This document shows positions 6,981 through 20,877 of a DNA stretch of 23,130 nucleotides, one piece after another. The position numbers were made by a program, and so were the translations under genes. Each line of letters opens with the position of its first letter. The stretch's first letter is position 1. The stretch lies in UHGV virus genome UHGV-0077013; one strand, 5' to 3'. The stretch is from a virus. Under the pieces are notes generated by a model. The model did not search any database. It worked only from the letters and a program-made list of their open reading frames with translations, and was not told the origin of the DNA.

Positions 6981-6987
6981 TGAGTGA

Positions 6988-8193
6988 TTACGCCGCTGCA
7001 ATCTTCAGCAGTTTGATGGCCTGCGAATCGACCAGCATCCCGCCGGTGCGCTTGGTGGTATAAAAACCGACAAACGGTTTATTGGTGTACGGGTCACGCA
7101 GAATGCGGGTGCCGATACGGTCAACGATGGTGTAACCCCGTTTGAAGTTACCAAATGCAATGGCTTTCGCATCAGCGGCGATATCCGGCATCTGTTCGTT
7201 TTCAGCGATACCGTAACCCGCCAGAGAGGACGGCTGCCCCAGTTCCAGCCCCGGACGCCACAGATAGTTACCCTCGGTGTCTTTCAGCAGACGGATGGCA
7301 AACAGGCTGTTGTTGTTCATCATGAACTTCGCGCCAGTGCGGTGTGCCTTACGCAGCGTGTAAATCAGTTTGATAATGGCGTCTGCGGTCACCGCGGTCG
7401 CTTCGCCGGATACAATATGCTGAAGTTTGCCGAACGCCCGGACCTTGTCGGTTTCATCGGTGGATTCATACGCCAGGAACCCTTTCGGCTTCTTGGTGCC
7501 ATCGCCTGAGGTAAAGGCAATTTCTTCCTGTTCGGCAAATTCGGTTGCCAGCTCGCTGTTGATCCAGGCCTCCACGTTGAAGAAGGCATCGTCCAGCATT
7601 TTCTGGGTAGCCTGCGGGTTGCCGTAGATTTCCCCCATGAGAGGTTCAATCAGCTCCAGTCTGGAGGTGGCAGTCTGGGATCGCGTATCCGTTTCCCCCA
7701 CCCATCCGGAAGCCGTACCGCCCAGATTCACCAGTTTTTTGTAGTCGGAACCGCCAACGGTGATCACCGTGGCTTCCTGACGCATCACCACTTCATCTTT
7801 CAGCAGGTTAAGAATGTTGCGATCCAGTTCTTCCGGCACGGCATAGCCACCGTCTTCATCGGTGCCCACCTGCAATGCCTTGCGCTCCAGATCGCGCAGA
7901 CCGTCTTCACGGCCTTTACGCAGGAAGCCCACAAACGCCTCTTTATGCTCGGTGGCCAGTTTATTTTGCGCACCACCTGCCGGACGTTTCAGCTCAAGCA
8001 GCTCTTTTTCAAGGTCGCTTTTGAGATTTTCCAGCTCGCTGAGTTTCCCGTTCAGGGTTTCCACCTGCCCGGCAAGTTTGCCTTTTTCCTGCTCAATCGC
8101 ATCCACGCGCTTGTCGTTCTTTGCTTTGAAGTCGTCAAACTTCTGCTGCAGTTCCTGCGCGACCTGTTCGACATCTTTAATATCTACCGCCAT
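6988..8193 (-). CDS. Major capsid protein, HK97-like with N-terminal delta domain
   Basis: 401 aa. The N-terminal ~100 aa are coiled-coil-like (KLSELENLKSDLEKELLELK), followed by an HK97-fold-like body. Strong AGGAGA Shine-Dalgarno before the ATG at 8191-8193. Gene order is portal, protease, capsid. Confidence 0.9.
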   Translation of the reverse strand: MAVDIKDVEQVAQELQQKFDDFKAKNDKRVDAIEQEKGKLAGQVETLNGKLSELENLKSDLEKELLELKRPAGGAQNKLATEHKEAFVGFLRKGREDGLRDLERKALQVGTDEDGGYAVPEELDRNILNLLKDEVVMRQEATVITVGGSDYKKLVNLGGTASGWVGETDTRSQTATSRLELIEPLMGEIYGNPQATQKMLDDAFFNVEAWINSELATEFAEQEEIAFTSGDGTKKPKGFLAYESTDETDKVRAFGKLQHIVSGEATAVTADAIIKLIYTLRKAHRTGAKFMMNNNSLFAIRLLKDTEGNYLWRPGLELGQPSSLAGYGIAENEQMPDIAADAKAIAFGNFKRGYTIVDRIGTRILRDPYTNKPFVGFYTTKRTGGMLVDSQAIKLLKIAAA

Positions 8194-8207
8194 CGTATTT
8201 CTCCTGA

Positions 8208-8894
8208 TTAGAAGTTCAGATTTTTCAGTGCATTCAGTGCAGAGCTCACATCCTCAGCGTCGCGCAGGGACAGTGCGCCATAGCCCCCGGCCATGAATGC
8301 TTTGGCCTGGGTACGGGAGAGTCCGACATCACGCAGGACTCTTTCGATTTTTTTCTGTTCGGGGATTTCCCCGCGGGCCAGTGCGTTCTTGACGTCGCTG
8401 ATCCGCGCCTCGTCGTTAGACGGGAACGTCACCAGGCTGACTTCCCAGAGGTCGATTTCTTTCAGCAGAAAGGCTTCTTTGCTCCGGTCGTATTCCCAGT
8501 CTTTCAGGACGTACCCAATAGAAAGGCCGGTTAACGAACCGGCCTTCATGTGTGCATGTGCGCGTTTTGCGAGGGGATCATCATCAATAAGCAACCGTCC
8601 CCTGACGTAAAGCCCGACATCGTCTTCCTTCATTTCGGTGTAAACACCGATGGGTTCATCCATGCGGTGCTGCCAGAGCAGCGCAGGTAACGCTTTTCTG
8701 TCACTCCACGCCCGCAGGGAAGCAGCAAATGCCCCGGACATCACCACATCATCGTGGCTGTCCTTTACACCAAAGACGGAGCCATACCCTTCAAACTCAC
8801 CGGAGTCACTGACAGATTTCAGACTCAGCGGTACATCAAGACGTTGTTTCGTCTGCATTGGCGTTATCCTTCTGCTTACCGGCCTTACTGCCAT
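8208..8894 (-). CDS. Prohead protease (HK97 family)
   Basis: 228 aa with ...FEGYGSVFGVKDSHDDVVMSGAF..., typical of HK97-type prohead proteases. It overlaps the portal 3' end, so the true start may be the internal ATG near 8858. Confidence 0.8.
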   Translation of the reverse strand: MAVRPVSRRITPMQTKQRLDVPLSLKSVSDSGEFEGYGSVFGVKDSHDDVVMSGAFAASLRAWSDRKALPALLWQHRMDEPIGVYTEMKEDDVGLYVRGRLLIDDDPLAKRAHAHMKAGSLTGLSIGYVLKDWEYDRSKEAFLLKEIDLWEVSLVTFPSNDEARISDVKNALARGEIPEQKKIERVLRDVGLSRTQAKAFMAGGYGALSLRDAEDVSSALNALKNLNF

Positions 8895-10077
8895 CGGAGG
8901 GTTTCGTGGTCATGTTCATCGGTGTGAGATAGACATCACCACCGGGACGCGGATTCATATCTTCCAGGTCGCGGCAGTCATTGGGAGAGTAAATTCCCCA
9001 GTTAATCCCGGTGGCGTAGGCTTCAAAACGGGACTTCATATCCCCGCGCAGTAACGCCCCGGCGTTAAATTTGGCGTAATAAACGCCCTGCTTACTTTTT
9101 CGTACCAGTCCGGTGTTGATCCGCTGTTCGATGCGGGTCAGATACGGCACCAGTGAATAGTTGATAAATCCGAGCCCCAGTTCTTCGATATTGTTGAAGG
9201 TGGCGCGATCGGTGTTCTGCACCATGTGCAACGGCACCCGGAACAGACGACAGATTTCTTCAAGCTGAAACTTGCGGGTTTCCAGGAACTGGCTGTCCTC
9301 GGCGTTCAGCGCCATCGACTTCCAGTCCAGCCCCATCTCAAGGATCATCGGGCGGTGAGCATTACCAAGCCCGGTGTGACGCTCCTCAAAATCTTTCTTC
9401 AGGCGCTCGTAAGCCTGATCTGACAGCGTCTGCTCTGTACGCAACACACCCGACGTCACCGCGCCATTGCTGAACAGTCTGGCCCCGTGCTCTTCGGTCG
9501 CTGCCGCCAGCGATATTGCCTCGCGGGCATAGGCGATGGGATTCAGTCCCACCAGACCGTCCAGCGTCAGCGTGCGCACATGCCAGATATCTTCCTGGCT
9601 CAGTACATCCGTGGAGCCGTCCGGGAATGTGACCTGGTAAACCGGTTCCCAGCTACTGTTAAGCTTCGGTACCACACAACCTGGGTCGACGGGCAGCAGT
9701 TCAGCCACTTCGCCAAATGCTTTCACTTTGTAGGCGTAAAAGTTTCCCCGCAGGCACAGACAGGTGACCACCAGCTCCCAGAACTCCTGCGGCGTCATAT
9801 AGCCATTGGGACGCGTGGAGATCAGCTTATGCAGACGTTCGCCGGTGGCTCTCTGTTTCAGGCTGCCGTTCAGGTGATACAGGTTGCAGGGCAACATCCC
9901 GACCGACTCCGCCAGCACCCTGACGCAGGAAAAAACCGCCGTCAGTCGCATGGCCCGCTGGCTGCTGATCTGCTTTCCGGTATAGGTGTCATATGACAGC
10001 CCGATAGCATCCGCCAGCTCTGCTGGCGTGGTCACCGGTGCGTCACTTTTTCGTTGAAATAATCCCGAAAAGAACAC
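8836..10077 (-). CDS. Portal protein (HK97 family)
   Basis: 413 aa, in the canonical position after the large terminase. GTG start at 10075-10077 preceded by a GGAGGT Shine-Dalgarno. Confidence 0.88.
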   Translation of the reverse strand: MFFSGLFQRKSDAPVTTPAELADAIGLSYDTYTGKQISSQRAMRLTAVFSCVRVLAESVGMLPCNLYHLNGSLKQRATGERLHKLISTRPNGYMTPQEFWELVVTCLCLRGNFYAYKVKAFGEVAELLPVDPGCVVPKLNSSWEPVYQVTFPDGSTDVLSQEDIWHVRTLTLDGLVGLNPIAYAREAISLAAATEEHGARLFSNGAVTSGVLRTEQTLSDQAYERLKKDFEERHTGLGNAHRPMILEMGLDWKSMALNAEDSQFLETRKFQLEEICRLFRVPLHMVQNTDRATFNNIEELGLGFINYSLVPYLTRIEQRINTGLVRKSKQGVYYAKFNAGALLRGDMKSRFEAYATGINWGIYSPNDCRDLEDMNPRPGGDVYLTPMNMTTKPSDGSKAGKQKDNANADETTS

Positions 10078-10259
10078 TATTTACCTCCGCCGACAGACGG
10101 CTGTGTACGGTCGAGATATCGCGCCACCAGCCACGACCAGAACAGGCACAGCGCCCCGGCAACAACAAACCCCGCCGGGGGATAAATCAGCCAGGCACCA
10201 TACGCCAGCAAAAGCGCACCCAGCACGCCCACCAGAGGCGCGAGAATCAGCATGATCAT
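10077..10259 (-). CDS. Small two-helix membrane protein, function unknown
   Basis: 60 aa ([26 protein letters not shown]...[19 protein letters not shown]) with two predicted transmembrane segments. GAGGTAA Shine-Dalgarno 5 nt before the ATG. Wedged between the terL stop and the portal start. Confidence 0.55.
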
Positions 10260-10270
10260 AATTACCTCAG

Positions 10271-12004
10271 TTAAAGCGAGCGGATCCCGTAGGACTCAAT
10301 GTGATCAGACAGCGTGTCTTCTTTCTCGTACAGCATGGCTCTGCCAACCGCCATAATCAGCGCAACTGCACCATCAATTTTGTTTTCCGCCTGCTCTTTG
10401 ACGGGCTTCACCACATCATCGTTACCCGGAATGGTTTTGCCGACCACATTGCCGATACACCAGGTCATGATGGGATTGCCGTCATGATGAAAGCGCTCCG
10501 ATTCAATCGCCGCTTCCAGTTCTTTCATCGGATCGGACATGTTGGTGTAGTTCTGAATGATGGTGATGGGGTTCAGGTCTTCATCAGCAAGGTCATGCGA
10601 CAACCCGGTCGCCCCGAAGGGGTCGATGGGTGACTCACTGACCGGGCTGATTTTGTTCGCCGCTTTGGCCTCCTCGAGGATGTAGCGATAATCCACCTCT
10701 GCACCATCGGTAACGGTCAGAACGCCCATTTCCACCCATTTCTGAAAGCGTTCGGCTGTCCGGCGATCTTCATTTTTCTCGACGCTGTACACCGTGTCAT
10801 ACGGTACCCAGAAGCGCGGAGCCACACTGTAGTAATGCGTTTTACCGTCAATCTCGCGGGTATAAAGTCGCGCCATGCTGTTCATATCCAGCTTACGCGC
10901 CAGGTCAAAGGCCAGAATGCACGGCTGCCCCTCGAACTGCTCAAGGGTCAGTGATTTATCCTCGCAGCTCTGCCAGCTCACCAGGTTGAAATACGCCGAA
11001 CGCGCCGACACCCAGATATTGAGGTGTTTTGTTTTAAAGACGTTTGCCAGACGGGCGTTATTTTTCGCACGCTGCTGCTGACTTAACAAAAATTCGCGAT
11101 AAACCGACACGCCAATATTTGGATTGGCTTTTTCCAGCACCTGCGGGTCGGTCCAGTCGTCACCTTCATCAACGGTATAGATGATCCCGAACAGTTCATC
11201 GTTAGGCACCGAGCCGTTGAGCATCTCGATAACTTCCCGCCGCTTGTCGTAGCACGGCCCCTCAATGTTGTACCCGGCAGTAGTAATGGCCCACATCAGT
11301 GGCTGACGTCGCGCCCCCATCCCGGTAAGCATCGTGGTGTAAAGCGCATCGGTGGCGTGCTCGTGATATTCATCCACCACCGCACAGTGGGGTGATGATC
11401 CATCACCGGGGTTACCGATCAGCGGTTCAAACCGCGCGCCATCCTCCGGACGGTTCATGTTTGAGGCGTTAACCTCAATCCCGAACGCTTCCGTCAGCAT
11501 GGGTGTGCGTTTACACATCAGTCGCGCCGGGCGAAAGACTTCCCACGCCTGTTTCTCTGTCGTGGCACCGGAATACACTTCCGCGCCAAACTCGTTATCA
11601 CAGGCAAAACAATACAGGGCAACACCGGCAGAGATTGCTGATTTGCCGTTCTTACGGGGGATTTCGGTATACACCTCCCGGAAGCGGCGCAACCGGGTGC
11701 CTTTATTGACCCAGCCAAACGCACAGCAGATCACAAATAGCTGCCACGGCTCCAGCGTGATGGGCATCCGTTTAAATGCCCACTCACCCTTGGTGTGCGG
11801 CAACAGCTGAATAAATTTGGCGGCCCGTTCAGCCAGATCCTTGTCGAAGCGGTAACGAAACGACTTACTTTTTTCCGCCATCAGGTCATCAAGATGGCGC
11901 TGGCAGGCCTGAATCACAAACTGGCAGGCCACAATCTTTCCGCGCACGACATCCCGGGCATACTGATTGGCAGCATTTACGTTGGGGTAAGATTTCCGGC
12001 TCAT
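10271..12004 (-). CDS. terL: Terminase large subunit
   Basis: 577 aa with Walker A-like IPRKNGKS and a C-terminal nuclease-like region. Follows the small terminase gene. Confidence 0.92.
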
Positions 12005-12017
12005 GATTCGATGATTT

Positions 12018-12503
12018 TCAGATTGTCAGAAACGGGTTAGTGGCTTTCTTCTTCCCCGCCAGGCCAATCAGACGCTGTCGGCTGCTGGGGTCGAGTCCGA
12101 GCATTGCCCCCGTGCTGCTCATCTCGGACTCCTGTTCTTTTTTGGCGGTCAGCTCCGGATTTTTGACCATGCCACCCATTGCACCGGTGATGGTGTTACC
12201 CTGTCTGGCAATATTTTTCACGGCACGTCGCCAGAACTCATAGGCCACACACCACCGCTCAAGTACCGCCAGGTCAGTCACGCACAGCAGGCCCTGACCG
12301 CAGAGTTCTTTGGTTGTCAGTTGCCACATGATCGTGGCGAGAGGGAGATCTTCTTCAGCGAACCACTCCGGTGGCTCAACACCTTTGATGGGCGTAAAAA
12401 CAGGTTCATCTTTATTCAGGGCTCGCTTGCCGGGGTTTCCGGCCAGCGCCTTGCGCGCCGTTGGCTTGGGGCGACGCCCGGAACGCCCCGCCGTTCCAGC
12501 CAT
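12018..12503 (-). CDS. terS: Terminase small subunit (P27-family-like)
   Basis: N-terminus [30 protein letters not shown] is typical of P27-family small terminases. Preferred start is the ATG at 12501-12503 with an AGGAG Shine-Dalgarno; the track ORF begins at an upstream GTG (12512). Confidence 0.85.
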
Positions 12504-12713
12504 ATGCGGCACTCCTGGTTAAATTTCATTTTTCGCGGGTATAAAAAAACGATGGGGCGGGCAGTCCCGGATAGTCAGGGCTGTAGAGATTTGACTACCC
12601 CCTCCCCACTGGATTCAGGTTACTGCTATTCCGTTAATCGCTGCTTACGGGGATAGCTGCGTTGTGATTTTGACCATTCAGGTCGCCGCTATTTCCTCAC
12701 CGATTGGGTGCTA

Positions 12714-12742
12714 CGCGTGCGCGTACTTGTCCCGAAATACCA
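12714..12742 (-). promoter_or_regulatory. Conserved ~27-nt motif in the late-operon leader, also present in the early region at 19061-19089
   Basis: Plus-strand CGCGTGCGCGTACTTGTCCCGAAATACCA here versus GCGCGTGCGTACTTGTCCCGAAAACACCA at 19061-19089. Degenerate copies of the GTGCGCGTACT core occur at 18850 and 18966. Confidence 0.35.
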
Positions 12743-12753
12743 GAAACCGCCAG

Positions 12754-12775
12754 CCAGAGGATGATTTCCCTCTGG
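12754..12775 (-). terminator. Hairpin 3' of the PerC-like gene (weak terminator / attenuator candidate)
   Basis: Inverted repeat CCAGAGG-ATGATTTC-CCTCTGG. Only short U-runs follow on the transcript. Confidence 0.3.
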
Positions 12776-12779
12776 TGGT

Positions 12780-13061
12780 CTACCTTTGCCTCTTGCCGCC
12801 ATTTAACCGGAAGGCGTTACCGTTCGGTTGCGCTATCCCCATGCGGTGTTGCGTTTCGGTAACAGCTTTATGCAGGTCGCCAAAGTCCTCAACCTTCACG
12901 GGCGGGCGCTTCACGTTCTCCAGACACGTTTCACGGCGGCGCTTTATCCATTCCCGATCATCGTCCTCGGTGCATAACAGCATGACTTCCATCCATCGCG
13001 CTGCGGCGCGTCGGTACAGCCCTTTTGCTTCCAGATCCTCGGCTTTACTGTCGTTTACCAT
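12780..13061 (-). CDS. PerC-family-like small transcriptional regulator
   Basis: 93 aa; AEDLEAKGLYRRAAARWMEVM...DREWIKRRRETC resembles the PerC/Pch-type activator pattern as recalled. GGGGAG Shine-Dalgarno; sits directly upstream of the packaging operon. Confidence 0.5.
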   Translation of the reverse strand: MVNDSKAEDLEAKGLYRRAAARWMEVMLLCTEDDDREWIKRRRETCLENVKRPPVKVEDFGDLHKAVTETQHRMGIAQPNGNAFRLNGGKRQR

Positions 13062-13063
13062 GT

Positions 13064-13534
13064 TTATCTCCCCCAGAATGGCGTTTCATCGTCGAATGGT
13101 GGGCGTTGGTCAAAATCATCAGGGGTATTATATAACTCCCATCCCGGCGCGGATTGTGTTGTGTGGCCCCTGCTGGCTCCGCTTGCTTTGACTGATTCGG
13201 CCCGCTTCCCGCCGGGGCGTACCGTTCTGGCGCTGATCACGCTGTCGGCTACTACCTGATAACCTTGCTGTGTACCGCCATCCTTGCCCGTCCACTGATT
13301 GATCTGCATCGCTCCGGCAACACTGACTAAATCGCCTTTAACGTGTCCTGCCAGTGCGTCGGCCTGTTTGCCGAATGCCACCACGCCCAGCCAGAAAGTA
13401 ACCTCTCCGCCCTCTGCTGCATGGCAGGGCAGTGCCACCGCTAACCGGCCCATTGCCATGCTTGTACCGTTTGCTGTGGTACGGGTCTGGGGATCTGCCA
13501 CCAGCCGCCCGTATGCTGAAATTTGTGCTGTCAT
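13064..13534 (-). CDS. ssb: Single-stranded DNA-binding protein
   Basis: 156 aa with an OB-fold-like N-terminal half, a Gly-rich linker and an acidic C-terminal tail (DDFDQRPPFDDETPF) reminiscent of the SSB DDDIPF tip. Confidence 0.7.
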   Translation of the reverse strand: MTAQISAYGRLVADPQTRTTANGTSMAMGRLAVALPCHAAEGGEVTFWLGVVAFGKQADALAGHVKGDLVSVAGAMQINQWTGKDGGTQQGYQVVADSVISARTVRPGGKRAESVKASGASRGHTTQSAPGWELYNTPDDFDQRPPFDDETPFWGR

Positions 13535-13833
13535 AGATATTTCCTCATGTAGTCACTACCTCCGGGGATAATTTTCATTTCTTCCCTTAAAGGCCACTGC
13601 TCCGCCATTGCTGCGGTCGAGTGATTCCCGTCATCACGTCCGGCCTGTGCTGCCGTCCAGTGTGTTGCATATTCTGTAAATCCAATTTCTGCTGGCTGCC
13701 TCATCCAGTGGGCGATCATCCTCAAGGTCATTTGCAGGCTTTGGGTGTCGCCCTGTAATGCGCGTTTGTCAGTAAACCCCTTCAATGCTTCACGCTCCTG
13801 ATAGGTCATTTTCTGGCTGGTTTCTGTATTCAT
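13531..13833 (-). CDS. Hypothetical protein
   Basis: 100-aa ORF with AAGGTGG Shine-Dalgarno and an ATGA overlap with ssb. Confidence 0.5.
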   Translation of the reverse strand: MNTETSQKMTYQEREALKGFTDKRALQGDTQSLQMTLRMIAHWMRQPAEIGFTEYATHWTAAQAGRDDGNHSTAAMAEQWPLREEMKIIPGGSDYMRKYL

Positions 13834-13887
13834 TGCCCACCTTCGTTATAAGCTACCCCCCCCATAGAATCTTTTTGGGGGTGTAAT

Positions 13888-14136
13888 ATCCCTACCAATC
13901 CCTACTAACTGTCTCAGGCCACGAATGGCAAGGCTTTCAGACTGGTAGGCATTCAATTTTGTTGCCCTACATAACCCTACTTATCCCTACTAAATCACTT
14001 CAACGGCATTTTACTGCCTGTTTTATTTGGTAGGGATATGTAGGGATAAGTAGGGATAAAAATATATATCCCTACCTAGTTTAAAGCCTTGCTACGTCTG
14101 GCCTCGTCTCGTTTTTAGTAGGGCAGTAGGGATAAG
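13888..14136. repeat. Iteron array (about 11 copies of a GTAGGGATA-type unit) flanking an AT-rich spacer: putative replication origin / crr-like site
   Basis: CCCTAC cores at 13890, 13900, 13965, 13975, 13985 and 14070. GTAGGG cores at 14030, 14040, 14050, 14118 and 14126, plus a partial at 13944. Several are in 10-bp phased tandems. Opposed triplets flank a 39-bp AT-rich spacer (13991-14029). Lies immediately 3' of the primase/helicase gene. Confidence 0.7.
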
Positions 14137-14152
14137 TGCCGCCGTAAAAGTT

Positions 14153-16594
14153 TCAATCATCACTCTGCCCGCTCTCCACACCGTAAGCGCGTGGCATGAA
14201 CTCCTCAGCCTTCTCGTTATAGCCAACGTTGGTTTGCGCTCTGCCGTTAATGCTTCTCGTCAGGTAGCTGGCTCGGTACTCTTTTGCTGCTGATTTTATG
14301 GCGCGTGAAAACTTATTGACGGAAAGCGGTTTACCCAAACCGTGATACTCCATAAACGCCAGATAAAGATGATAAAGATACGTCCTCGGCTCTGGCTGGC
14401 CTGCCCATGTACCTCCGCCCATCATCATGCCTTTGGGTTCGTTCATGAAAAAAAGCGCCGCACACATATCGACAACCGGATCCGTGCCGCGTTTAACCTC
14501 TAGCGCCTCCTGCGAATCGCGCTGCTCTAGTAATAGTGCTTTTGCTTTGTTCTGGTCGGCAAAGGTGGTTAGCAGGTGGCGGATAATCACCGGGATTTCT
14601 CGCCTGATTTTTGCTGTTAAATCCGGGTCTTTGTCTGCGTCTGATACCGGGTTATTAAACGGGAATATCACGCGGCGGCGGGCAATGCCCCCGTTTCGCT
14701 CCGTGAATGTCATCGGCTCGTTATTGGTTGCCATAACAACGGCATTTATCACGGTTGTGAACTGCTTTTCATATTTCCCATCAATCTCTACCGGATCGCC
14801 GCCCGTAATGGCTTTAATCCCCGCACCCTCTCCAACATAGCGGGTCTGGTCAGGCATAATAATCAGGCTTTTTCCTACGAACTGCGCCCGTCCCCGTGCG
14901 GTGTCCAGCGTCATCATGCTACCGCTGGCGGTGTTGTGTTCACCTGCCAGCGTGGTTGCTATACTGCTGAATACGGATTTCCCACTGCCGCCCTCGCCAG
15001 TTATCTCAATGAATAGCTGCCAGTCGTGACGCTTCGCCAGCACCATAAACAAGGCTGCTTTGATACGCTCGGCCTTATGATGGTCGCCAGCCGTTGCATG
15101 ATTCAGCCAACGGGTAAAATTGGGGGCGCTGGTGGTAATATTTTCCCCCGGCGCTGGCGGGGTGTAGGTGATCCCATTGTGGTTCATCAGCCAGTTACCC
15201 GGCGAATGGGCGGAAAACGTCTGCGTGGCGAGGTCATAAACGCCGTTATCAAAACCAATCAGATCCCCGCTCCGCTCACCAATTACCGGTATTTGCAGCT
15301 TCATGGTTGCGACAACCGATTTAATCCCCTTTTCGGTGTAGTGGGCTTCGTGCTCGTCGAAAATTGCCACCATAACCCTTTCTAATTCACTGTCTGGTAG
15401 CTTCACCCATACGCCAGATTCGTAGCAGTAAACAGTGCCACTATCAGGGTTAACCGCCAACATATCCCATCGAGATGAAAGCAACCGCGCTTTCTGGCTG
15501 GCTGCCATTTGTGCAATATCTCCGACTTCGGCTTTACGGCGGGATTTACCGCCCGCAATGGCCTGTAGTTGTGGTTTCACGGCTTCCCCCTGAATCTGGT
15601 ACATCGAATCGTTAAACGCAGCCGTAGCGACTTCCAGCCCGTTTTGCTGGCGGTAGTCGTCCCAGTCGGCTTTGTAGTCTGTCGGCGGCAGCGCCACCCA
15701 GCCAGCCACGGATAATGCTGCTTTCTCTGCGGCATCTTTGCCCGTGTTCGCCTGTTCGTCCTGCTGGTGGTCGTTATCTGCGGCAATGATAATTTGCGAC
15801 TGCGGGTGTTTCCGGCGCATTACTCTGGCAACGTGGATCAGGTTCCCGGCGTCAATTGCCGACACTGTAAGCGCGTCCGGGCGCATCAGGTGAACGGACA
15901 GGGCCGTCGCCAGCCCCTCGGCAATTAATACGCTCTGCGGCTGTTCCGGTGCGTTAACGGCGTGATATGCCCCGCGCTTTGCTGAACCTGTCAGGAGTCG
16001 CTTCTCTCCCTGCGGTGTAATGGTTTGCGCTGCTGCCACTGCGCCGGATTCGTCCACCAGCTCCAGCAATAACGAACCATCCGGCATTACCGGATATTTA
16101 AACCCGGTCAGCCCTTTTGATTGCAGGTAATCAGATTCGCCCTGTGTGGCACTCTGGCGCATTCCGGCATACAGACGGGCAAACGTAGCCCTTCGCTGCT
16201 CTGCGTCCTCTGCTGCCTGTTTCTGGCGCTCCTGCTCACGCTGCTGGCGGTCAGCTTCCAGTTGCTCCCTTCTATGGCTCGCTGCCACCGGATCGGTTTC
16301 CGCTGCCCGGTAATCAATACCCAGCACATCAGCGGCAAGCCTCGCCGCTTCTGTGGTGGCGCAGTTGTTCACCTTCTTAATCAGGTCTAAACCGTCACCA
16401 GCGCCACACTGATTGCAGATAAAGCTACCGCGCCCGTTGTCGTCGAATCTGAAACGGTCTTTTCCACCACATGCAGGGCATGGAGAATGGCGGCGCGATG
16501 AATCAGGCACGTCGATAGACAATCCAGCCAGCACATAAGGCCAGCGCCCGGCGGCGGCACTGGTCACTTCGCGGATAAGGTCGATATTACGCAT
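14153..16594 (-). CDS. P4 alpha-like primase/helicase (zinc-binding primase domain plus P-loop NTPase)
   Basis: N-terminal zinc ribbon CPACGGKDRFRFDDNGRGSFICNQCGAGDG, a TOPRIM-like IIAADNDH motif, and Walker A GEGGSGKS. Preferred start is the ATG at 16592-16594, coupled (ATGCGTAA) to the upstream ORF; the track ORF extends to 16651. Confidence 0.9.
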   Translation of the reverse strand: MRNIDLIREVTSAAAGRWPYVLAGLSIDVPDSSRRHSPCPACGGKDRFRFDDNGRGSFICNQCGAGDGLDLIKKVNNCATTEAARLAADVLGIDYRAAETDPVAASHRREQLEADRQQREQERQKQAAEDAEQRRATFARLYAGMRQSATQGESDYLQSKGLTGFKYPVMPDGSLLLELVDESGAVAAAQTITPQGEKRLLTGSAKRGAYHAVNAPEQPQSVLIAEGLATALSVHLMRPDALTVSAIDAGNLIHVARVMRRKHPQSQIIIAADNDHQQDEQANTGKDAAEKAALSVAGWVALPPTDYKADWDDYRQQNGLEVATAAFNDSMYQIQGEAVKPQLQAIAGGKSRRKAEVGDIAQMAASQKARLLSSRWDMLAVNPDSGTVYCYESGVWVKLPDSELERVMVAIFDEHEAHYTEKGIKSVVATMKLQIPVIGERSGDLIGFDNGVYDLATQTFSAHSPGNWLMNHNGITYTPPAPGENITTSAPNFTRWLNHATAGDHHKAERIKAALFMVLAKRHDWQLFIEITGEGGSGKSVFSSIATTLAGEHNTASGSMMTLDTARGRAQFVGKSLIIMPDQTRYVGEGAGIKAITGGDPVEIDGKYEKQFTTVINAVVMATNNEPMTFTERNGGIARRRVIFPFNNPVSDADKDPDLTAKIRREIPVIIRHLLTTFADQNKAKALLLEQRDSQEALEVKRGTDPVVDMCAALFFMNEPKGMMMGGGTWAGQPEPRTYLYHLYLAFMEYHGLGKPLSVNKFSRAIKSAAKEYRASYLTRSINGRAQTNVGYNEKAEEFMPRAYGVESGQSDD

Positions 16595-16928
16595 GGTTGC
16601 CTCCTGCCACGGTCGCGCCCATGTCTTTAACCATGCTTTGCCATATCTCACGCCCGACGTCAGTCAATCCGTCATTAGTGACGCAACGCTCAAGAAGCTC
16701 GACCCCCACGGTTTCCCACTGCGGGTAGGACACTTTCATGGCTGCCAGTGTGTAGCTATCGATCAGGCTGCGAACGCCTTTTACTCCATTGACGATTTCC
16801 ACACGGACGGCGAGGCCGTCCGCATCAACCATGAAATAGTCACCGCCGCTGGTGGAGGTAATGTGGTTATACAGTGCCGACGCATACTTATTCGCCAGCG
16901 CATTCAGTCTGAAATTTTTAGTAATCAT
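16587..16928 (-). CDS. Hypothetical early protein
   Basis: 113-aa ORF whose stop overlaps the primase start. Confidence 0.5.
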   Translation of the reverse strand: MITKNFRLNALANKYASALYNHITSTSGGDYFMVDADGLAVRVEIVNGVKGVRSLIDSYTLAAMKVSYPQWETVGVELLERCVTNDGLTDVGREIWQSMVKDMGATVAGGNHA

Positions 16929-16937
16929 GTCGCCCCC

Positions 16938-17564
16938 TCAGTGCGGCAGCGGCATTTCAGGCCAGCCGTTTTCATCCAGTTCAGCTATAAAGCTGTTGTG
17001 AAGTTCAGCAAGCGTTTCACGCCCGAACGGGGTCAACTCGCCGCGCTCCGTGTCGATCATGGCCTGATAAAAAACAATGGCGTTCGCTGTTCCCTGCTCA
17101 ATGCCGTAGCGCTCAACCATTGCGCCCTCCATGTTGTTAGCCATCGCCAGACGTTCCGCGAACGGGTAAACCACAATCCCCGCCGTGCCATTGGAGTAAA
17201 TCGCCACCTGCGATGAAGTGCCGTCAGACTCAGTTACCGTGGTTGTGCCGTTTTCGCGCTTCATCTCAGAAATGAACGTCGCAGCAATCAGCCAGCGCCA
17301 CATAGTGACGTTATGCTGCGCGGTGAAGTCGAACCAGCCACGCGCCCCGCCATCAGCAACGGCAAAATGAATGGCGTATCCGATATCTGGCTTATCGTCG
17401 TACTCTCCGGCGTCAAGGCCGTTCACGGCGCTCTCGTAGCTGATAAGAGCAACCTGCTCATATCCCCCGGCATCATTGCGGGTCATGATATTGACGCCGT
17501 GCGGTGTGGCTTCGGCGTGTAATAAGTCGGCATTTCCCGATTTAATGGTCGGTGCGTTGCTCAT
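16938..17564 (-). CDS. Hypothetical early protein
   Basis: 208-aa ORF with an ATGA overlap to the upstream gene. Confidence 0.55.
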   Translation of the reverse strand: MSNAPTIKSGNADLLHAEATPHGVNIMTRNDAGGYEQVALISYESAVNGLDAGEYDDKPDIGYAIHFAVADGGARGWFDFTAQHNVTMWRWLIAATFISEMKRENGTTTVTESDGTSSQVAIYSNGTAGIVVYPFAERLAMANNMEGAMVERYGIEQGTANAIVFYQAMIDTERGELTPFGRETLAELHNSFIAELDENGWPEMPLPH

Positions 17565-17824
17565 GCGCTGCCCTCCGCATCAATTCTGGCTATATCGACA
17601 ATCGTCAGGACTTTACTCAGCCAGCAATACGCGATGGCTGCTTGCTCAACTTCGAGGAGTGGTAATAAATCGGTCATAACGTGAGCCAGCCCATTGCGGG
17701 CGCGGGTCATGCGTTCTGCTGTTCGGTCCGCCAGCGTAAAATCATCCGGGTATGCTTCTTTACGAGATAGCATCGATTCGGCTTCCAGATCTGCCGGGTG
17801 GCGATAGATGGTATTTATGTTCAT
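17561..17824 (-). CDS. Hypothetical early protein
   Basis: 87-aa ORF with ATGA overlaps on both sides. Confidence 0.5.
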   Translation of the reverse strand: MNINTIYRHPADLEAESMLSRKEAYPDDFTLADRTAERMTRARNGLAHVMTDLLPLLEVEQAAIAYCWLSKVLTIVDIARIDAEGSA

Positions 17825-18135
17825 TTGCCCGCCCTCCCTTTGGCTTCTTTTTCACTGATTGAGCGCAAGAATGCGGCGTTTGCAGCGCTATCGTTCAGCG
17901 CCAGCGCAACTTCTCCGATATGTCCCAGCATTGCGCCTAATCTGTACATATCAGCCTTAGCGCTTTCCTCCGGGTAGCCATCGCTACCAGCCGCCCAGAA
18001 CATGAGGCTACCAATGGCACTTACGCCCAGCATTAAATCATCCACGGCATCACTGGCGCAGCTCTCAATTCCTTTCAGATCATCAGGCGTACAACCATCA
18101 AATTTGCAGGACACTAAATCGTTATACATGCTCAT
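17821..18135 (-). CDS. Hypothetical early protein
   Basis: 104-aa ORF with ATGA overlaps on both sides. Confidence 0.5.
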   Translation of the reverse strand: MSMYNDLVSCKFDGCTPDDLKGIESCASDAVDDLMLGVSAIGSLMFWAAGSDGYPEESAKADMYRLGAMLGHIGEVALALNDSAANAAFLRSISEKEAKGRAGK

Positions 18136-18311
18136 GCCGCCACCTCACGAACGCGGGTAATCTGGATGTGGGAAAGGCGTTCATTTCTGGCCTGATTTAG
18201 CGCCTCAGCTTTGGCGCTGATCGCGCTGCGGGCGTCAACGATATAAACGAACTCGACTAATTCGCCGCTCCGGGCGGTGGCGCATCCTGCAACACGGAAG
18301 TAATTAAGCAT
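18132..18311 (-). CDS. Hypothetical small early protein
   Basis: Preferred ATG at 18309-18311 (MLNYFRVAG...), overlapping the upstream stop as CATGCTTAA. The track ORF starts at an upstream TTG (18341). Confidence 0.45.
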   Translation of the reverse strand: MLNYFRVAGCATARSGELVEFVYIVDARSAISAKAEALNQARNERLSHIQITRVREVAA

Positions 18312-18495
18312 GTGCGCCCCCTGTGCGAATACGTCCGGCAAAAAAGCAAACGTGATCCCGCGCCAGAATGCGGCGGGCTTCCTGCTCAGTCTCTGCGGCG
18401 ATATGGTGAATTTTGACGGTAATTGTCGGCATATCGCGGCGAACTGCGGCGATAATCCAGATAAATTGCGGTTTTTGGGTAGGGGTAGTAGCCAT
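18304..18495 (-). CDS. Hypothetical small early protein
   Basis: Strong CAGGAGG Shine-Dalgarno 8 nt before the ATG at 18493-18495 (MATTPTQKPQFIWIIAAVRR...). The longer 119-aa track ORF is probably an over-extension. Confidence 0.5.
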   Translation of the reverse strand: MATTPTQKPQFIWIIAAVRRDMPTITVKIHHIAAETEQEARRILARDHVCFFAGRIRTGGAHA

Positions 18496-18653
18496 TATGG
18501 CAGCCTCCTGTAACTGGGATTTATTCCCACCACCGGAAACGCCAATTTCACTGGTGGTGAGCTGAACAGGGTTGGCGTAACCGGCGTTACAGGAAACCGG
18601 CGCGGATCGCTCCGCCCCCATCCAGCCCACCATTACTTTTTGAGCAATATGGG

Positions 18654-19253
18654 CTATAGCCATATCGCTGGGAAAGAGGTGTGCAGATGCGAGGACACAA
18701 AAAAGACGCTCGGCGCGTCATGTGTCGCCTGTAACATTATCAGGACGCCAATCCCGGCACCAGATTTTGCTGGTGCGCTATAACCATAAACCGGGTTGGC
18801 GATAGTCGGCAAGCCCTTTTTTATGGACTCCAGAAACTCACCTTCGCGCGTGCGCGTACTGTTGCATAAATTCCCTGCATCTAGTGGTGATGTCAGAAAA
18901 ATCTTCCCGCCTCGTGTAGTGATGATGGGAAAATCTTCCTCGCGTAGTGACCCCCAATAAATCTTCGTGCGCGTACTGGTCTCGAAACTCTCCTCGTCAC
19001 CACGACGAGAAAATGAGGAGCTGGCATTAGCTGGCACTGTTATGCCAGCTTCGCATTCATGCGCGTGCGTACTTGTCCCGAAAACACCAAGATTTGTAAA
19101 GATCTGGCGGTGGCAAATGTCAGGTTTTGACAGGTTCCAAACGTCGCTATTTGTCGCAATCTGGCGGCGGGCTGCTTTGCTCCAGACGTTAACATTTGCA
19201 TACATCAGGCCAGCCAGGGGAAAGGCTTTATTCTGGATGGCGGCATTAAGCAT
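18654..19253 (-). CDS. Questionable ORF spanning the repeat-dense region
   Basis: 199 codons; the ATG at 19251-19253 overlaps the antirepressor stop (CATGCTTAA). The translation is low-complexity and the DNA is full of direct repeats and hairpins, so it may be non-coding or encode only a short N-terminal peptide. Confidence 0.2.
   Translation of the reverse strand: MLNAAIQNKAFPLAGLMYANVNVWSKAARRQIATNSDVWNLSKPDICHRQIFTNLGVFGTSTHAHECEAGITVPANASSSFSRRGDEESFETSTRTKIYWGSLREEDFPIITTRGGKIFLTSPLDAGNLCNSTRTREGEFLESIKKGLPTIANPVYGYSAPAKSGAGIGVLIMLQATHDAPSVFFVSSHLHTSFPAIWL
18846..19171. repeat. Repeat-dense region between the antirepressor gene and the small early genes
   Basis: Three degenerate tandem units (AAATCTTC...CGYGTAGTGA) at 18897, 18930 and 18958. 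GTGCGCGTACT-type cores at 18850, 18966 and 19063. A 23-bp direct repeat ATTTGTxxxxATCTGGCGGxGG at 19092-19114 and 19149-19171. Hairpins at 19028-19049 and 18993-19009. Confidence 0.5.
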
Positions 19254-20079
19254 GATTAGCCCCCAGATGTTTAGCTAACCAGCGCTGAGAGAGGCGGATT
19301 AGCTCGGCTTTACGCAGGTCATATCCCATACCCATATCAATCAGCGTAATGTTGGTACTCTCCAGGTAGGCGAGGTGTTCCAGTTGCCCTGCGTTCATGC
19401 TGTCCCGTGGTTCGCCAGTAATGTCATTTGCCTGCGCCCACTGCTTCGCCGTCATGCCACCCAGCACGATACGGGCGATCATGTTGCTCTCGTTGCTGTA
19501 GTGGCGAGCCTGCGTCTGTTTACCCTGTTCTGCGCGGGCGCTTTCCAGCGCTACGCACATCGGTTTAAACAGGTTGGCGGCACTGATACGGGCTTTTAGC
19601 TGGCGACGATAGCGGGCGGCGATTTCAGGCACGCTACGCTGTAATTCTTCCTCGCACTGGATGAAATAACGGCGGATAGCGCGGCCCTGTTCAGTGCGTT
19701 CGATCATTGCCAGTTCTTTCGCCATTCCGACACTTAACAGATAGTCTTTGCCGGGTCTGCCAGAGTGCTTAATCTTGCTGTAAGCCGCGCCATTCGGGCT
19801 TTTCCCCAGATTTGGGGAAATTGTTTTATGGACTGAGTAATCGTGCCCAATGGTGAAGTCATATTCAGAGATGCGATCAGTGATCCATGTAGAGAAGTCT
19901 TTTCCCACGCCCAACGCTTTGTGTAACGCTTTTGCGCTAACAATATTGGTTTCACGCCCACCGATATGACCAGGAATAACCGGGACAATTGTGGCAAATT
20001 CATTACCGTTAATTGTTCCCTGATAGGCGTTCAGATGAGGGGCGGCCTCAGAAATTAATCTGCTTTTTTCGATGTTCAT
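19246..20079 (-). CDS. Antirepressor (AntA-like N-terminal and KilA-C/ANT-like C-terminal domains)
   Basis: 277 aa. ...KDFSTWITDRISEYDFTIGHDY... resembles the AntA domain and ...LSVGMAKELAMIERTEQGRAIRRYFIQCEE... the KilA-C/ANT domain. Confidence 0.7.
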   Translation of the reverse strand: MNIEKSRLISEAAPHLNAYQGTINGNEFATIVPVIPGHIGGRETNIVSAKALHKALGVGKDFSTWITDRISEYDFTIGHDYSVHKTISPNLGKSPNGAAYSKIKHSGRPGKDYLLSVGMAKELAMIERTEQGRAIRRYFIQCEEELQRSVPEIAARYRRQLKARISAANLFKPMCVALESARAEQGKQTQARHYSNESNMIARIVLGGMTAKQWAQANDITGEPRDSMNAGQLEHLAYLESTNITLIDMGMGYDLRKAELIRLSQRWLAKHLGANHA

Positions 20080-20091
20080 TTTCAGTCTCCG

Positions 20092-20526
20092 TTAGGCGGC
20101 GGTGAGATTGTCCGGGTATAGGTTGAGAATGTCGGCAATTTCAGGCTGAGAAAGTCCCTGATAGCCGCCAGCGTCGGCGTTATGGTTCACAAGCCGAATA
20201 ACTTTTAGAACGTCACCGCGCCCGGTAAAGCGATAGCGTAAATGTGACCCTATCCCGTCGGGGTTCTTTTCGTCTATACGCTCAAGCTGAATATCAAGCC
20301 TGCGCTCTAACTCGCTGGCGTAGTTCCTTCCAGATGAAAGGCGGCAATATTGCAGAATGTCATTTTCTGTCCATCCCTCTATACCAGTACGCAGCATATA
20401 GACGCGGGCGCGGTGTTTCTTTGGGGTACGCTTAGGTACTTGTACCGGGCTGGTGGTCGGCGTAATATCAGACGTGCGAATATCTGAGTTAGCCGCCTGC
20501 TGTACGGGGCGGTTTTTCTTTTTCAT
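20092..20526 (-). CDS. Hypothetical protein with basic N-terminus
   Basis: 144-aa ORF whose start overlaps the alpA-like stop (TAATG). Confidence 0.5.
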   Translation of the reverse strand: MKKKNRPVQQAANSDIRTSDITPTTSPVQVPKRTPKKHRARVYMLRTGIEGWTENDILQYCRLSSGRNYASELERRLDIQLERIDEKNPDGIGSHLRYRFTGRGDVLKVIRLVNHNADAGGYQGLSQPEIADILNLYPDNLTAA

Positions 20527-20744
20527 TACGCCACCTTTCCCCGGCGCTCCGCCAGCCAGTTGTGAATCTCAACCGCATCAAACGCAGTCACGTTATCTGT
20601 TAGCTTCACTGGGCGTGGAAGAGTGCCATTTTTAACCCATCTATCAATAGTAGGCAGTGAAACACCTAGCAATTCCGGCATGCGAAAGCGACGGATGTAT
20701 CCAGTTGTTGGGATAGCTGATGATGCTGGCTTGTGTGCTGTCAT
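20526..20744 (-). CDS. alpA: AlpA-family transcriptional regulator / excisionase-like protein
   Basis: 72 aa with a helix-turn-helix pattern ...MPELLGVSLPTIDRWVKNGTLPRPVKL...AFDAVEIHNWLAERR, typical of the AlpA family. Confidence 0.75.
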   Translation of the reverse strand: MTAHKPASSAIPTTGYIRRFRMPELLGVSLPTIDRWVKNGTLPRPVKLTDNVTAFDAVEIHNWLAERRGKVA

Positions 20745-20825
20745 ATCTCTAGTAACCTCTCTGATAGCTCATGAAGTTACTTAAAGTTTAGTGGTTGCCC
20801 ATACAGTATTTCTATTAAGACTAGA

Positions 20826-20877
20826 ATCTATTGAAAGAAATTATAAATCTATTGAAAAAATACTGATCCACTGAAAG
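20826..20877. promoter_or_regulatory. Three direct repeats (ATCYAYTGAAA) about 80-130 bp upstream of alpA: candidate operator/promoter element
   Basis: atctattgaaag at 20826-20837, atctattgaaaa at 20847-20858 and atccactgaaag at 20866-20877, spaced about 20 bp apart in a very AT-rich intergenic region. Confidence 0.35.

What the first reader, a model, noticed from the sequence alone, without database searches (positions are those of the whole stretch)
13888..14136. Dense iteron array with AT-rich spacer immediately 3' of the primase/helicase gene: putative replication origin
About eleven copies of a GTAGGGATA-like unit sit in both orientations, several in 10-bp helical phase, and opposed triplets (13965-13990 and 14030-14059) flank a 39-bp AT-rich stretch. 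That is the architecture of an iteron-type origin or cis-replication region. In phage P4 the alpha primase/helicase binds octamer iterons in ori and crr; here the iteron sequence is different, suggesting a distinct initiator specificity.
Basis: partly seen in the sequence, partly recalled or inferred. Interest (0 to 1): 0.6.

Follow-up and report, generated by a model that had tools for sequence, protein, structure and literature searches.

The report
Replication origin of a phage satellite
The repeat cluster is real and is almost certainly the replication origin of a phage-parasitic chromosomal island (PICI) of E. coli; this kind of origin is already described, and this copy uses a different recognition sequence.

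Summary
Eleven exact GTAGGG hexamers and one degenerate copy lie in window 13887-14134, against two in the other 23 kb. They form one dyad-symmetric array, 2-1-3 | AT-rich 39 bp | 3-1-2. It starts 17 nt after the stop codon of a P4-alpha-type primase-helicase.

The interpretation, an initiator-specific iteron origin, is supported by comparison, not by experiment.
- The region aligns along its length with the tested origin of the E. coli PICI EcCICFT073.
- Relatives keep the same site layout but use other iterons: GGTAGA, or P4's own TGTTCACC.
- Iteron type follows the C-terminal winged-helix domain, which matches the solved P4 origin-binding domain (PDB 1KA8). It does not follow the rest of the protein.
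- In one relative the domain and the array were exchanged together as a roughly 600-bp cassette between otherwise similar flanks.
- P4's ori has the layout of one half of this array.

The two are joined within a roughly 50-nt shared, cos-like segment, so the window may be an assembly chimera.

This is a new member of a known kind, of modest interest.

The parts
14153..16594 (-). Pri-Rep, a P4-alpha-type primase-helicase of 813 aa and the presumed initiator. An upstream in-frame GTG at 16651 would give 832 aa.
   Evidence: Pfam finds Zn_Ribbon_Prim, Toprim_3, D5_N, DUF5906 and Pox_D5. It matches PHROG 2249, DNA primase, at E=3e-148. RefSeq annotates the identical gene as 'phage/plasmid primase, P4 family'.
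14207..14485 (-). C-terminal winged-helix domain (residues 704-796), the presumed iteron-recognition module.
   Evidence: phmmer hits PDB 1KA8, the P4 alpha origin-binding domain, at E=4e-8. Its sequence class co-varies with iteron class.
13882..14134 (.). The whole origin array: one imperfect palindrome of about 250 bp, centred near 14010, carrying 12 iteron sites in the layout 2-1-3 | spacer | 3-1-2.
   Evidence: There is an inverted repeat of 80-nt arms at 73% complementarity (I1). The single-strand DNA fold is -63.8 kcal/mol, z=-8.1. The region aligns with the EcCICFT073 origin.
14118..14134 (+). Proximal iteron pair, GTAGGG at 14118 and 14126, 17 nt past the primase stop codon.
   Evidence: The pair sits at the same distance from the stop codon in L002, L003, L005 and L042 (22/30 or 23/31 nt).
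14067..14075 (-). Single iteron in opposed orientation, preceded by an A/T run at 14056-14066.
   Evidence: A single opposed iteron at the same position is present in relatives of all three iteron classes and in P4 ori.
14030..14058 (+). Inner iteron triplet, GTAGGGATA three times at exact 10-bp spacing.
   Evidence: (D3).
13991..14029 (.). Central 39-bp spacer at 33% GC, the presumed DNA-unwinding site.
   Evidence: The sequence is read and the GC minimum is. A central spacer of 25-74 bp, mostly AT-rich, separates the opposed triplets in relatives. The published PICI and SaPI description places the melting site there.
13962..13990 (-). Inner iteron triplet on the other arm: GTAGGGATA, GTAGGGTTA and GTAGGGCAA at 10-bp spacing.
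13945..13953 (+). Degenerate single iteron (GTAGGCATT), the mirror partner of 14067-14075.
   Evidence: (D6, I10). Exact copies occupy this position in L004, L077, L005 and L034.
13887..13905 (-). Distal iteron pair, GTAGGGATA and GTAGGGATT.
13850..13880 (-). Conserved distal motif, AAAA(N)TTT-N5-GGGGGG, between the array and the next gene. Its function is unknown; it could be an origin accessory or a regulatory site.
   Evidence: The motif is present in all nine aligned origins, with invariant columns. A related A-run/T-run follows each P4 crr unit. It forms a separate hairpin in the fold.
13531..13833 (-). Downstream 100-aa gene of unknown function. It is followed by ssb (13064-13534) and perC (12780-13061), giving the gene order pri-rep, ori, small ORF, ssb, perC seen in EcCICFT073.
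   Evidence: The small ORF itself is not similar to the one in CFT073.

Best explanation
Window 13882-14134 is the replication origin of a PICI-type phage satellite island. It belongs to the same origin family as the origin of E. coli PICI EcCICFT073 and the ori and crr of phage P4.

Proposed mechanism:
1. The island's own 813-aa primase-helicase (Pri-Rep, alpha-type, SF3 helicase) recognises the 9-bp iteron GTAGGGATA through its C-terminal winged-helix domain.
2. The 10-bp-phased triplets present three sites on one face of the helix on each side of the 39-bp AT-rich spacer.
3. Because the two arms are mirror images, two hexamers would assemble head to head.
4. The spacer melts, the helicase loads itself without DnaA, and the Toprim primase domain of the same protein primes synthesis.
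5. The outer single and paired iterons add cooperative binding. They stand in for what P4 achieves with a separate crr.

What is shown here: the repeat anatomy; the protein's domain content; homology of its C-terminus to the P4 origin-binding domain; positional homology of the DNA to a tested PICI origin; and co-variation of iteron with C-terminal domain.

What is inferred: binding, melting at the spacer, double-hexamer loading and self-priming.
For: - Anatomy: there are 12 sites in a 2-1-3 | 39-bp 33% GC | 3-1-2 dyad. The whole array forms one palindrome, z=-8.1.
- Initiator: the protein has the same Pfam domain set as P4 alpha. Residues 704-796 match 1KA8 at E=4e-8, and residues 389-649 match the SaPI5 PriRep helicase 7OLA.
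- Layout conserved with changed iterons (primase orientation, nt after the stop codon). The window has 22< 30< 78> 98< 108< 118< | 163> 173> 183> 248> 258>. L005 (GGTAGA) has 22< 30< 76> 108< 118< | 161> 171> 181> 202< 245> 255>. L042 (GGTGAACA, the P4 iteron) has 23< 31< 77> 109< 119< | 151> 161> 172> 228> 236>.
- Published PICIs: EcCICFT073 (GGTAGA) and EcCIRM13514 (TGTTCACC) show the same layout.
- P4: its ori reads << > <<< followed by an AT-rich stretch, which is one half-unit. P4 crr lies directly 3' of alpha.
- Co-variation: L042 is 73% identical to the window protein over residues 1-690 but 33% over the last 113 aa, and it carries the P4 iteron. L006 gives 69% and 32% and also carries the P4 iteron. 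L037 from Aeromonas gives 48% and 60% and carries GTAGGG.
- Cassette exchange: DNA identity between the window and L042 is 63-80% over primase nt 601-2100. It falls to 31-53% across the winged-helix codons plus the array, then rises to 66-80% in the next gene.
- Selection on the sites: iteron cores are invariant in 68% of columns against 26% of non-iteron columns among five genus-level relatives, Fisher p=8e-9.
- Alignment: the whole intergenic region aligns with the EcCICFT073 origin, with invariant GTAG/CTAC cores.
- Literature: Gram-negative PICI origins lie immediately 3' of the initiator gene with two iteron sets flanking an AT-rich region. The EcCICFT073 pri-rep-ori segment supported plasmid maintenance, and deleting rep or ori reduced it (PMC6092414). 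SaPI Rep winged-helix domains bind such iterons and self-load (PMC9371898).
- Element: the island has int, alpA and unidirectional genes, and it sits at yicC-dinD, the att site of the published EcCIRM13514.
- Single cluster: this is the only iteron cluster in the island.
Against: - There is no experimental evidence for this sequence. Binding, melting and replication are all inferred.
- In the published test on the homologous EcCICFT073 origin, ori deletion only 'significantly reduced' colony numbers. The array may therefore not be the sole determinant.
- The spacer is only moderately AT-rich (33% GC), and its length varies from 25 to 74 bp among relatives.
- Co-variation rests on a limited number of independent lineages. 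Relatedness inflates the apparent agreement, and only the L042/L006 discordance clearly demonstrates an exchange.
- One relative, L007 from Serratia fonticola, has a similar C-terminus (55%) but no array after the gene.
- No terminator separates the primase gene from the array. The array is therefore probably transcribed, which leaves room for an RNA-level or regulatory role.
Confidence: 0.85

Rival explanations
1. The array is a crr-like auxiliary site only. It binds the initiator and stimulates replication in cis, but strand opening and the first priming occur elsewhere, as in P4. There, ori and crr are 4.5 kb apart and a second origin (oriII) lies inside the alpha gene.
For: The array's position directly 3' of the initiator gene is that of P4 crr, not P4 ori. 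ori deletion in EcCICFT073 reduced plasmid maintenance but did not abolish it.
Against: No second iteron cluster exists anywhere in the island or in 41 kb around it; the best other hexamer cluster has 5 copies against 11. The array contains the layout of the P4 ori half-unit together with an AT-rich centre. The PICI literature treats this position as the origin.
Confidence: 0.07
2. The repeats are mainly a transcriptional control region. They would be operator sites through which the primase-helicase or another island regulator controls the downstream small ORF-ssb-perC genes or limits read-through. Any origin function would be secondary or absent.
For: The array fills the gap between two co-directional genes, with no terminator. 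A conserved A/T-run plus G-run motif at 13850-13880 sits just upstream of the next start codon.
Against: There is no sigma-70-like promoter in 13700-14300. The layout is kept in relatives whose downstream genes differ, such as L002, L004 and L063. Iteron type tracks the initiator's DNA-binding domain rather than any regulator. Homologous arrays in P4 are annotated replication sites.
Confidence: 0.05
3. The array is a packaging (cos/pac), partition or incompatibility site rather than an origin.
For: Clustered inverted repeats also occur at centromere-like and terminase-binding sites. The array lies about 1.4 kb from a terS gene in the window.
Against: The terS neighbourhood belongs to a different element that is joined to the island at 12517-12566. 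The segment shared with the phage, which is the likely cos, is there and not at the iterons. No partition genes are present in the island. The co-variation is with the helicase's origin-binding domain.
Confidence: 0.02

Closest known systems
Origin of Gram-negative PICIs, type example EcCICFT073 of E. coli CFT073 (Fillol-Salom et al. 2018, ISME J, PMC6092414)
   Same: It lies immediately 3' of pri-rep, with two opposed iteron sets around an AT-rich centre. The gene order pri-rep, ori, small ORF, ssb, perC is the same. The 2-1-3|3-1-2 site layout is the same, and the whole region aligns with invariant GTAG cores. The helicase and winged-helix part of the initiator is 55% identical. The island type and att site (yicC-dinD) match the published EcCIRM13514.
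   Different: The iteron is GTAGGGATA rather than GGTAGAYA. The initiator is a full-length 813-aa alpha-type protein with Zn-ribbon and Toprim primase domains. The EcCICFT073 (584 aa) and EcCIRM13514 (607 aa) proteins lack these domains. No experiment has been done on this variant.
Phage P4 ori and crr, bound by the alpha primase-helicase
   Same: The initiator has the same domain architecture. The C-terminal origin-binding winged helix is homologous (1KA8). crr is also directly 3' of alpha. P4 ori has the << > <<< layout followed by an AT-rich stretch, like one arm of this array. Some relatives of the window protein use P4's own TGTTCACC iteron in the full dyad layout.
   Different: The P4 type I iteron TGTTCACC is absent here, with 0 copies. 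P4 splits the sites into ori and crr 4.5 kb apart, and crr is a direct 120-bp duplication. Here a single inverted array does both jobs. P4 has a terminator between alpha and crr, and none is detected here. The island lacks sid, delta and psu.
SaPI origins of Staphylococcus aureus with Rep/PriRep self-loading helicases (Ubeda et al. 2007 and 2012; Qiao et al. 2022, PMC9371898)
   Same: Six to twelve short iterons lie immediately 3' of rep, with an AT-rich centre and iterons pointing in opposite directions on the two sides. A C-terminal winged-helix domain on an SF3 helicase reads them. The helicase core of the window protein matches SaPI5 PriRep, 7OLA, at E=4e-11.
   Different: Those are Gram-positive elements with 5-6-nt iterons of unrelated sequence. 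Outside the helicase core there is no detectable sequence similarity.
Palindromic origins of eukaryotic-virus SF3 helicases (SV40 large T antigen, papillomavirus E1), as an analogy only
   Same: Short recognition sites in inverted arrangement sit next to AT-rich DNA and are read by an origin-binding domain attached to an SF3 helicase that loads as a double hexamer (own knowledge). EcCIRM13514 Pri-Rep gives a weak sub-threshold Pfam hit to the papillomavirus E1 helicase.
   Different: The origin-binding domains are not homologous. Double-hexamer loading has not been shown for P4 or PICI proteins.

Membership tests
Gram-negative PICI replication origin | It lies immediately 3' of the replication initiator (pri-rep) gene | tested here: met
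   The first iteron is 17 nt past the stop codon of the 14153-16594 gene, and the array fills the 319-bp gap.
Gram-negative PICI replication origin | Two sets of iterons flank an AT-rich region | tested here: met
   Opposed triplets at 13962-13990 and 14030-14058 flank a 39-bp spacer of 33% GC, with outer sites in mirror arrangement.
Gram-negative PICI replication origin | The host element is a PICI: int, alpA, unidirectional genes, about 8-15 kb, PICI-specific att site, no virion structural genes of its own | tested here: met
   In the complete genome NZ_CP136018 the identical segment is an island of about 12 kb between yicC and dinD with int, an AlpA-type HTH, primase, ssb and perC. yicC-dinD is the att site of the published EcCIRM13514. 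The structural genes in the window belong to a separate prophage.
Gram-negative PICI replication origin | Sequence and positional homology to an experimentally tested member (EcCICFT073 ori) | tested here: met
   The alignment of nine origins includes EcCICFT073 and has invariant GTAG/CTAC cores at each site. The layout is the same.
Gram-negative PICI replication origin | It supports initiator-dependent autonomous replication | not testable with these tools
   This needs cloning of 13834-14152 with or without the 14153-16594 gene. It is published only for EcCICFT073.
Phage P4 ori/crr | The initiator is an alpha-type primase-helicase with a C-terminal origin-binding winged helix | tested here: met
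   The Pfam domain set is the same as P4 alpha. The 1KA8 match has E=4e-8.
Phage P4 ori/crr | Type I iteron TGTTCACC | tested here: not met
   There are 0 copies of GTGAAC or TGAACA in the 350 nt after the stop codon. The iteron is GTAGGGATA.
Phage P4 ori/crr | Two separate cis sites (ori and crr) several kb apart | tested here: not met
   There is only one cluster in the island and its surroundings. The same scan finds both P4 sites.
Phage P4-like satellite | Carries the sid, delta and psu capsid-size and helper-control genes | tested here: not met
   None is annotated in the island, and none of the Pfam or PHROG hits among the window ORFs scanned is to such a gene.
Plasmid iteron origins (RepA, pi or TrfA type) | Directly repeated 17-22-bp iterons with DnaA boxes and often IHF sites | tested here: not met
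   The iterons are 9 bp and inverted. There is no DnaA-box match at up to 1 mismatch and no IHF consensus within 13834-14152.

The most novel reading that the evidence does not exclude
The winged-helix domain and its iteron array move together as one exchangeable cassette of about 600 bp. This has produced at least three specificity classes (GTAGGG, GGTAGA, TGTTCACC) on a single invariant 2-1-3|3-1-2 palindromic scaffold. The scaffold is shared by PICIs and P4-like elements from Enterobacterales to Aeromonas. On this reading P4's separated ori and crr are derived fragments of the ancestral palindrome. The mirror symmetry would reflect head-to-head loading of two SF3 hexamers, as at SV40 and papillomavirus origins. 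The class differences would act as a replication-incompatibility code that lets several satellites coexist in one cell.
Probability: 0.45. Interest if true: 0.45.

Novelty: new member of a known kind. Interest (0 to 1): 0.3.

Why it matters
The array marks the origin of an island carried by at least 82 of 5426 complete E. coli genomes. It also gives a clean natural experiment. The same origin scaffold is read by three versions of one winged-helix domain, and in one case the domain and the sites were swapped together between otherwise similar flanks. That makes the recognition code of alpha/Pri-Rep initiators testable with a few chimeras and oligonucleotides. It could help predict which satellites can co-reside or compete for replication. 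It does not change the current picture of how PICI and P4 origins are built.

Tried and rejected
- Phage database: megablast and blastn of 13500-14700 gave no match, so the element is not a deposited phage.
- Signals in 13700-14300: there is no sigma-70 promoter-like or intrinsic terminator-like site.
- Host-factor sites: there is no DnaA-box or IHF consensus site in the array, and the window-wide counts are at chance. The resemblance of TTATCCCTA to a DnaA box is 2 mismatches and is absent in the other iteron classes, so I dropped it.
- Second cluster: I looked for a second, ori-like iteron cluster in the island, as in P4, and found none.
- Specificity residues: I looked for single alignment columns in the winged-helix domain that separate the GTAGGG class from the GGTAGA class. 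None was invariant in one class and absent from the other.
- Published fourth allele: I tried to check whether the fourth published Pri-Rep allele (EcCIED1a) is this variant. The ED1a record is not in the collection. EcCIATCC25922, at the same att site, has the CFT073-type protein. EcCI042 has an unrelated RepA-type helicase.
- Published iteron sequences: they are in a figure that is not held as text, and no GTAGGG or CCCTAC string occurs in the supplements. I therefore cannot say whether this iteron was drawn there.
- Xenorhabdus, Photorhabdus and Proteus relatives: they show only weak, degenerate repeats after the gene (TGTATAG, GATGTAT). I did not analyse them further.
- Downstream ORF: the 100-aa ORF is not similar to the small ORF after the CFT073 origin and has no Pfam family.

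Full report
**1. The observation**

- GTAGGG or its complement occurs 13 times in 23,130 bases, and 11 of these lie within 13890-14131.
- The 9-mer GTAGGGATA with at most one mismatch occurs 15 times against 2.8 expected. None of 100 shuffles reaches 15, and 9 of the hits are in the array.
- Adding one degenerate copy (GTAGGC at 13945-13950) gives twelve sites.
- In + strand order their orientations are - -, +, - - -, then a 39-bp spacer (13991-14029, 13 G/C), then + + +, -, + +.
- Both inner triplets have exact 10-bp spacing.
- The array is therefore one large dyad centred near 14010. An inverted repeat with 80-nt arms was detected (I1).
- As a single strand the region folds into one long hairpin of -63.8 kcal/mol, 8.1 standard deviations below shuffled controls.
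- GC falls to 0.37 in the 100-nt windows 13950-14049 and 14000-14099.

**2. Context in the window**

All genes around the array are on the minus strand.
- The gene at 14153-16594 encodes an 813-aa protein with Zn-ribbon, Toprim, D5_N, SF3-helicase (DUF5906) and Pox_D5 domains. This is the same set as P4 alpha.
- The array begins 17 nt after its stop codon and fills the gap to the next gene.
- Downstream lie a 100-aa ORF (13531-13833), then ssb and perC.
- Upstream lie Icd-like, Ash, AntA and AlpA-type genes and an integrase at 21862-23130.

**3. The true host element**

The left half of the window encodes a complete myophage morphogenesis set, from terS to the tape-measure gene. No complete E. 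coli genome holds the window as one piece.

In strain GDSC2239PM the two halves lie at separate places.
- Window 1-12607 is a prophage at 1.43 Mb, at 99.8% identity.
- Window 12510-23130 is an island of about 12 kb between yicC and dinD, at 99.96% identity.
- The two loci share about 100 bp at 86% identity, with an identical core of about 50 nt just upstream of the phage terS. The window switches from one to the other inside that core.

The array therefore belongs to the island. The island has the gene set, size, one-directional layout and att site of a Gram-negative PICI. The published EcCIRM13514 sits at yicC-dinD (Table S1 of PMC6092414).

**4. Comparison with relatives**

A scan of one genome per species with the primase-helicase returned 79 loci. 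I examined the 350-450 nt after the stop codon in each.

Close relatives from Kluyvera, Atlantibacter, Buttiauxella and Shimwellia keep GTAGGG sites at the same positions. More distant ones keep the positions and orientations but with a different repeat.

| Locus | Iteron | Site positions (nt after the stop codon, primase orientation) |
|---|---|---|
| Window | GTAGGG | 22< 30< 78> 98< 108< 118< \| 163> 173> 183> 248> 258> |
| L005 Rosenbergiella | GGTAGA | 22< 30< 76> 108< 118< \| 161> 171> 181> 202< 245> 255> |
| L042 Tatumella | GGTGAACA | 23< 31< 77> 109< 119< \| 151> 161> 172> 228> 236> |

GGTGAACA is the complement of P4's type I iteron TGTTCACC. Two published PICIs show the same layout: EcCICFT073 with GGTAGA and EcCIRM13514 with TGTTCACC.

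Phage P4 fits the pattern too.
- Read in the alpha orientation, P4's annotated ori is << > <<< followed by AT-rich DNA. That is one arm of the array.
- P4's crr lies directly 3' of alpha.

A multiple alignment of nine origins, including EcCICFT073, aligns along the whole region. The GTAG/CTAC cores are invariant at each site.

Among five GTAGGG-class relatives from different genera, 68% of hexamer-core columns are invariant against 26% of non-iteron columns, Fisher p=8e-9.

**5. Link between protein and DNA**

Residues 704-796 match the solved origin-binding domain of P4 alpha (1KA8, E=4e-8). The helicase core matches SaPI5 PriRep, 7OLA.

Iteron class follows the last roughly 113 residues, not the first 690.

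| Locus | Identity to window, residues 1-690 | Identity to window, last 113 aa | Iteron |
|---|---|---|---|
| L042 Tatumella | 73% | 33% | P4 type |
| L006 Rahnella | 69% | 32% | P4 type |
| L037 Aeromonas | 48% | 60% | GTAGGG |
| L034 Tolumonas | 51% | 60% | GGTAGA |

At the DNA level, identity between the window and L042 changes along the locus as follows.
- It is 63-80% across primase nucleotides 601-2100.
- It drops to 31-53% across the winged-helix codons and the array.
- It returns to 66-80% in the downstream gene.

The DNA-binding domain and its sites were therefore exchanged together. This is the strongest non-experimental evidence available that the domain reads these repeats.

The caveats are that independent lineages are few and that L007 (Serratia fonticola) has a related C-terminus but a gene, not an array, right after the stop codon.

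**6. What is known**

Fillol-Salom et al. 2018 (PMC6092414) state three relevant things.
- The region immediately 3' of the initiator gene of Gram-negative PICIs is the origin.
- The EcCICFT073 pri-rep-ori segment kept a temperature-sensitive plasmid alive at the restrictive temperature, while rep and ori mutants did so poorly.

Qiao et al. 2022 (PMC9371898) describe the staphylococcal counterparts.
- Six to twelve iterons lie immediately after rep, with an AT-rich centre.
- A C-terminal winged-helix domain reads the iterons.
- The helicase is SF3 type and self-loading.

That P4 alpha binds type I iterons through its C-terminal domain is established knowledge (Ziegelin and Lanka, 1993-1995; Yeo et al. 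2002; from memory). It is reflected in the P4 record's annotation.

**7. Mechanism proposed**

1. Pri-Rep hexamers bind GTAGGGATA through the winged-helix domains.
2. The phased triplets on each side of the spacer position two complexes facing each other.
3. The 39-bp spacer opens, the helicase loads without DnaA, and the attached Toprim primase starts synthesis.
4. The outer sites add cooperative binding and replace P4's distant crr.

The absence of DnaA-box and IHF consensus sites in the array fits loading without DnaA. Only the anatomy, the homologies and the co-variation are shown here. The biochemical steps are inferred by analogy.

**8. Rivals**

- A crr-like helper site with initiation elsewhere is possible. 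However, no second cluster exists in the island.
- A purely transcriptional role is unlikely. No promoter-like site is present, and the layout persists where the downstream genes differ.
- A packaging role is unlikely. The phage-shared, cos-like segment lies at 12517-12566, not at the repeats.

**9. Verdict**

The element is a PICI origin with a previously uncharacterised iteron, at least in what I could read, and a full-length alpha-type initiator. It is a new member of a known kind.

The cassette exchange and the shared 2-1-3|3-1-2 scaffold linking PICI origins to the P4 ori and crr are tidy, testable observations. They are not surprising to a specialist.

Noticed in passing
window 12510-12607 (crossover within about 12517-12566): The window joins two loci that are separate in every complete E. 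coli genome searched. One is a myophage-type prophage (window 1 to about 12566). The other is a PICI island (about 12517 to 23130). The join lies inside an identical core of about 50 nt (TTAAATTTCATTTTTCGCGGGTATAAAAAAACGATGGGGCGGGCAGTCC) just upstream of the phage terS. The join is either an assembly chimera or a real recombinant. The shared segment looks like a helper cos site carried by the island, which would name this prophage as the candidate helper.
   Followed up: partly
window 13850-13880: A motif of an A-run, a T-run, about 5 nt and then a G-run (here CCCCCAAAAAGATTCTATGGGGGGGG in the primase orientation) lies between the last iteron pair and the next gene. It is conserved in all nine aligned origins whatever the iteron class. 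A related A-run/T-run follows each P4 crr unit, and a weaker mirror copy (AACTTTTAC) precedes the first iteron pair at 14144-14152. Its function is unknown.
   Followed up: partly
window 13916-13940 and 14080-14104: The non-iteron DNA between the outer pair and the single iteron is itself mirror-symmetric and partly conserved across genera (GCCAGAC...GCAAGGCTT / AAGCCTTGC...GGC). This suggests a second, unidentified binding factor, or that the array arose by inverted duplication of a half-unit.
   Followed up: no
window 14153-16594, compared with L083:5242-6996 and L082:6731-8554: The island's initiator is a full-length P4-alpha-type protein with Zn-ribbon and Toprim primase domains. The Pri-Rep proteins of the published E. 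coli PICIs EcCICFT073 and EcCIRM13514 are about 200 aa shorter, lack those domains and have an unrelated N-terminus. The island thus combines a PICI layout with a P4-type initiator.
   Followed up: partly
L007:6415-6915 (Serratia fonticola): This relative has a C-terminal domain 55% identical to the window's. It has no iteron array after the gene: a coding sequence starts 44 nt past the stop codon, and no dense hexamer cluster occurs within 4 kb either side. Its origin must be elsewhere or lost.
   Followed up: partly
window 14136-14152: No intrinsic terminator separates the primase-helicase gene from the array, whereas P4 has an annotated terminator between alpha and crr. Transcription from the early promoter probably runs through the origin into ssb and perC.
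   Followed up: no
window 16594-16651: The longest ORF starts at a GTG at 16651 (832 aa) and overlaps the upstream gene 16587-16928. RefSeq annotates the ATG at 16594 (813 aa). The true start is unresolved, and this does not affect the finding.
   Followed up: no
L010-L030 and others (Xenorhabdus, Photorhabdus and Proteus loci), 350 nt after the primase stop codon: These relatives are about 50% identical, with a C-terminus nearer P4's. They show only weak, degenerate repeats (TGTATAG, GATGTAT, TGTGCAC) in very AT-rich DNA. They may represent further iteron classes that exact-word counting misses.
   Followed up: no
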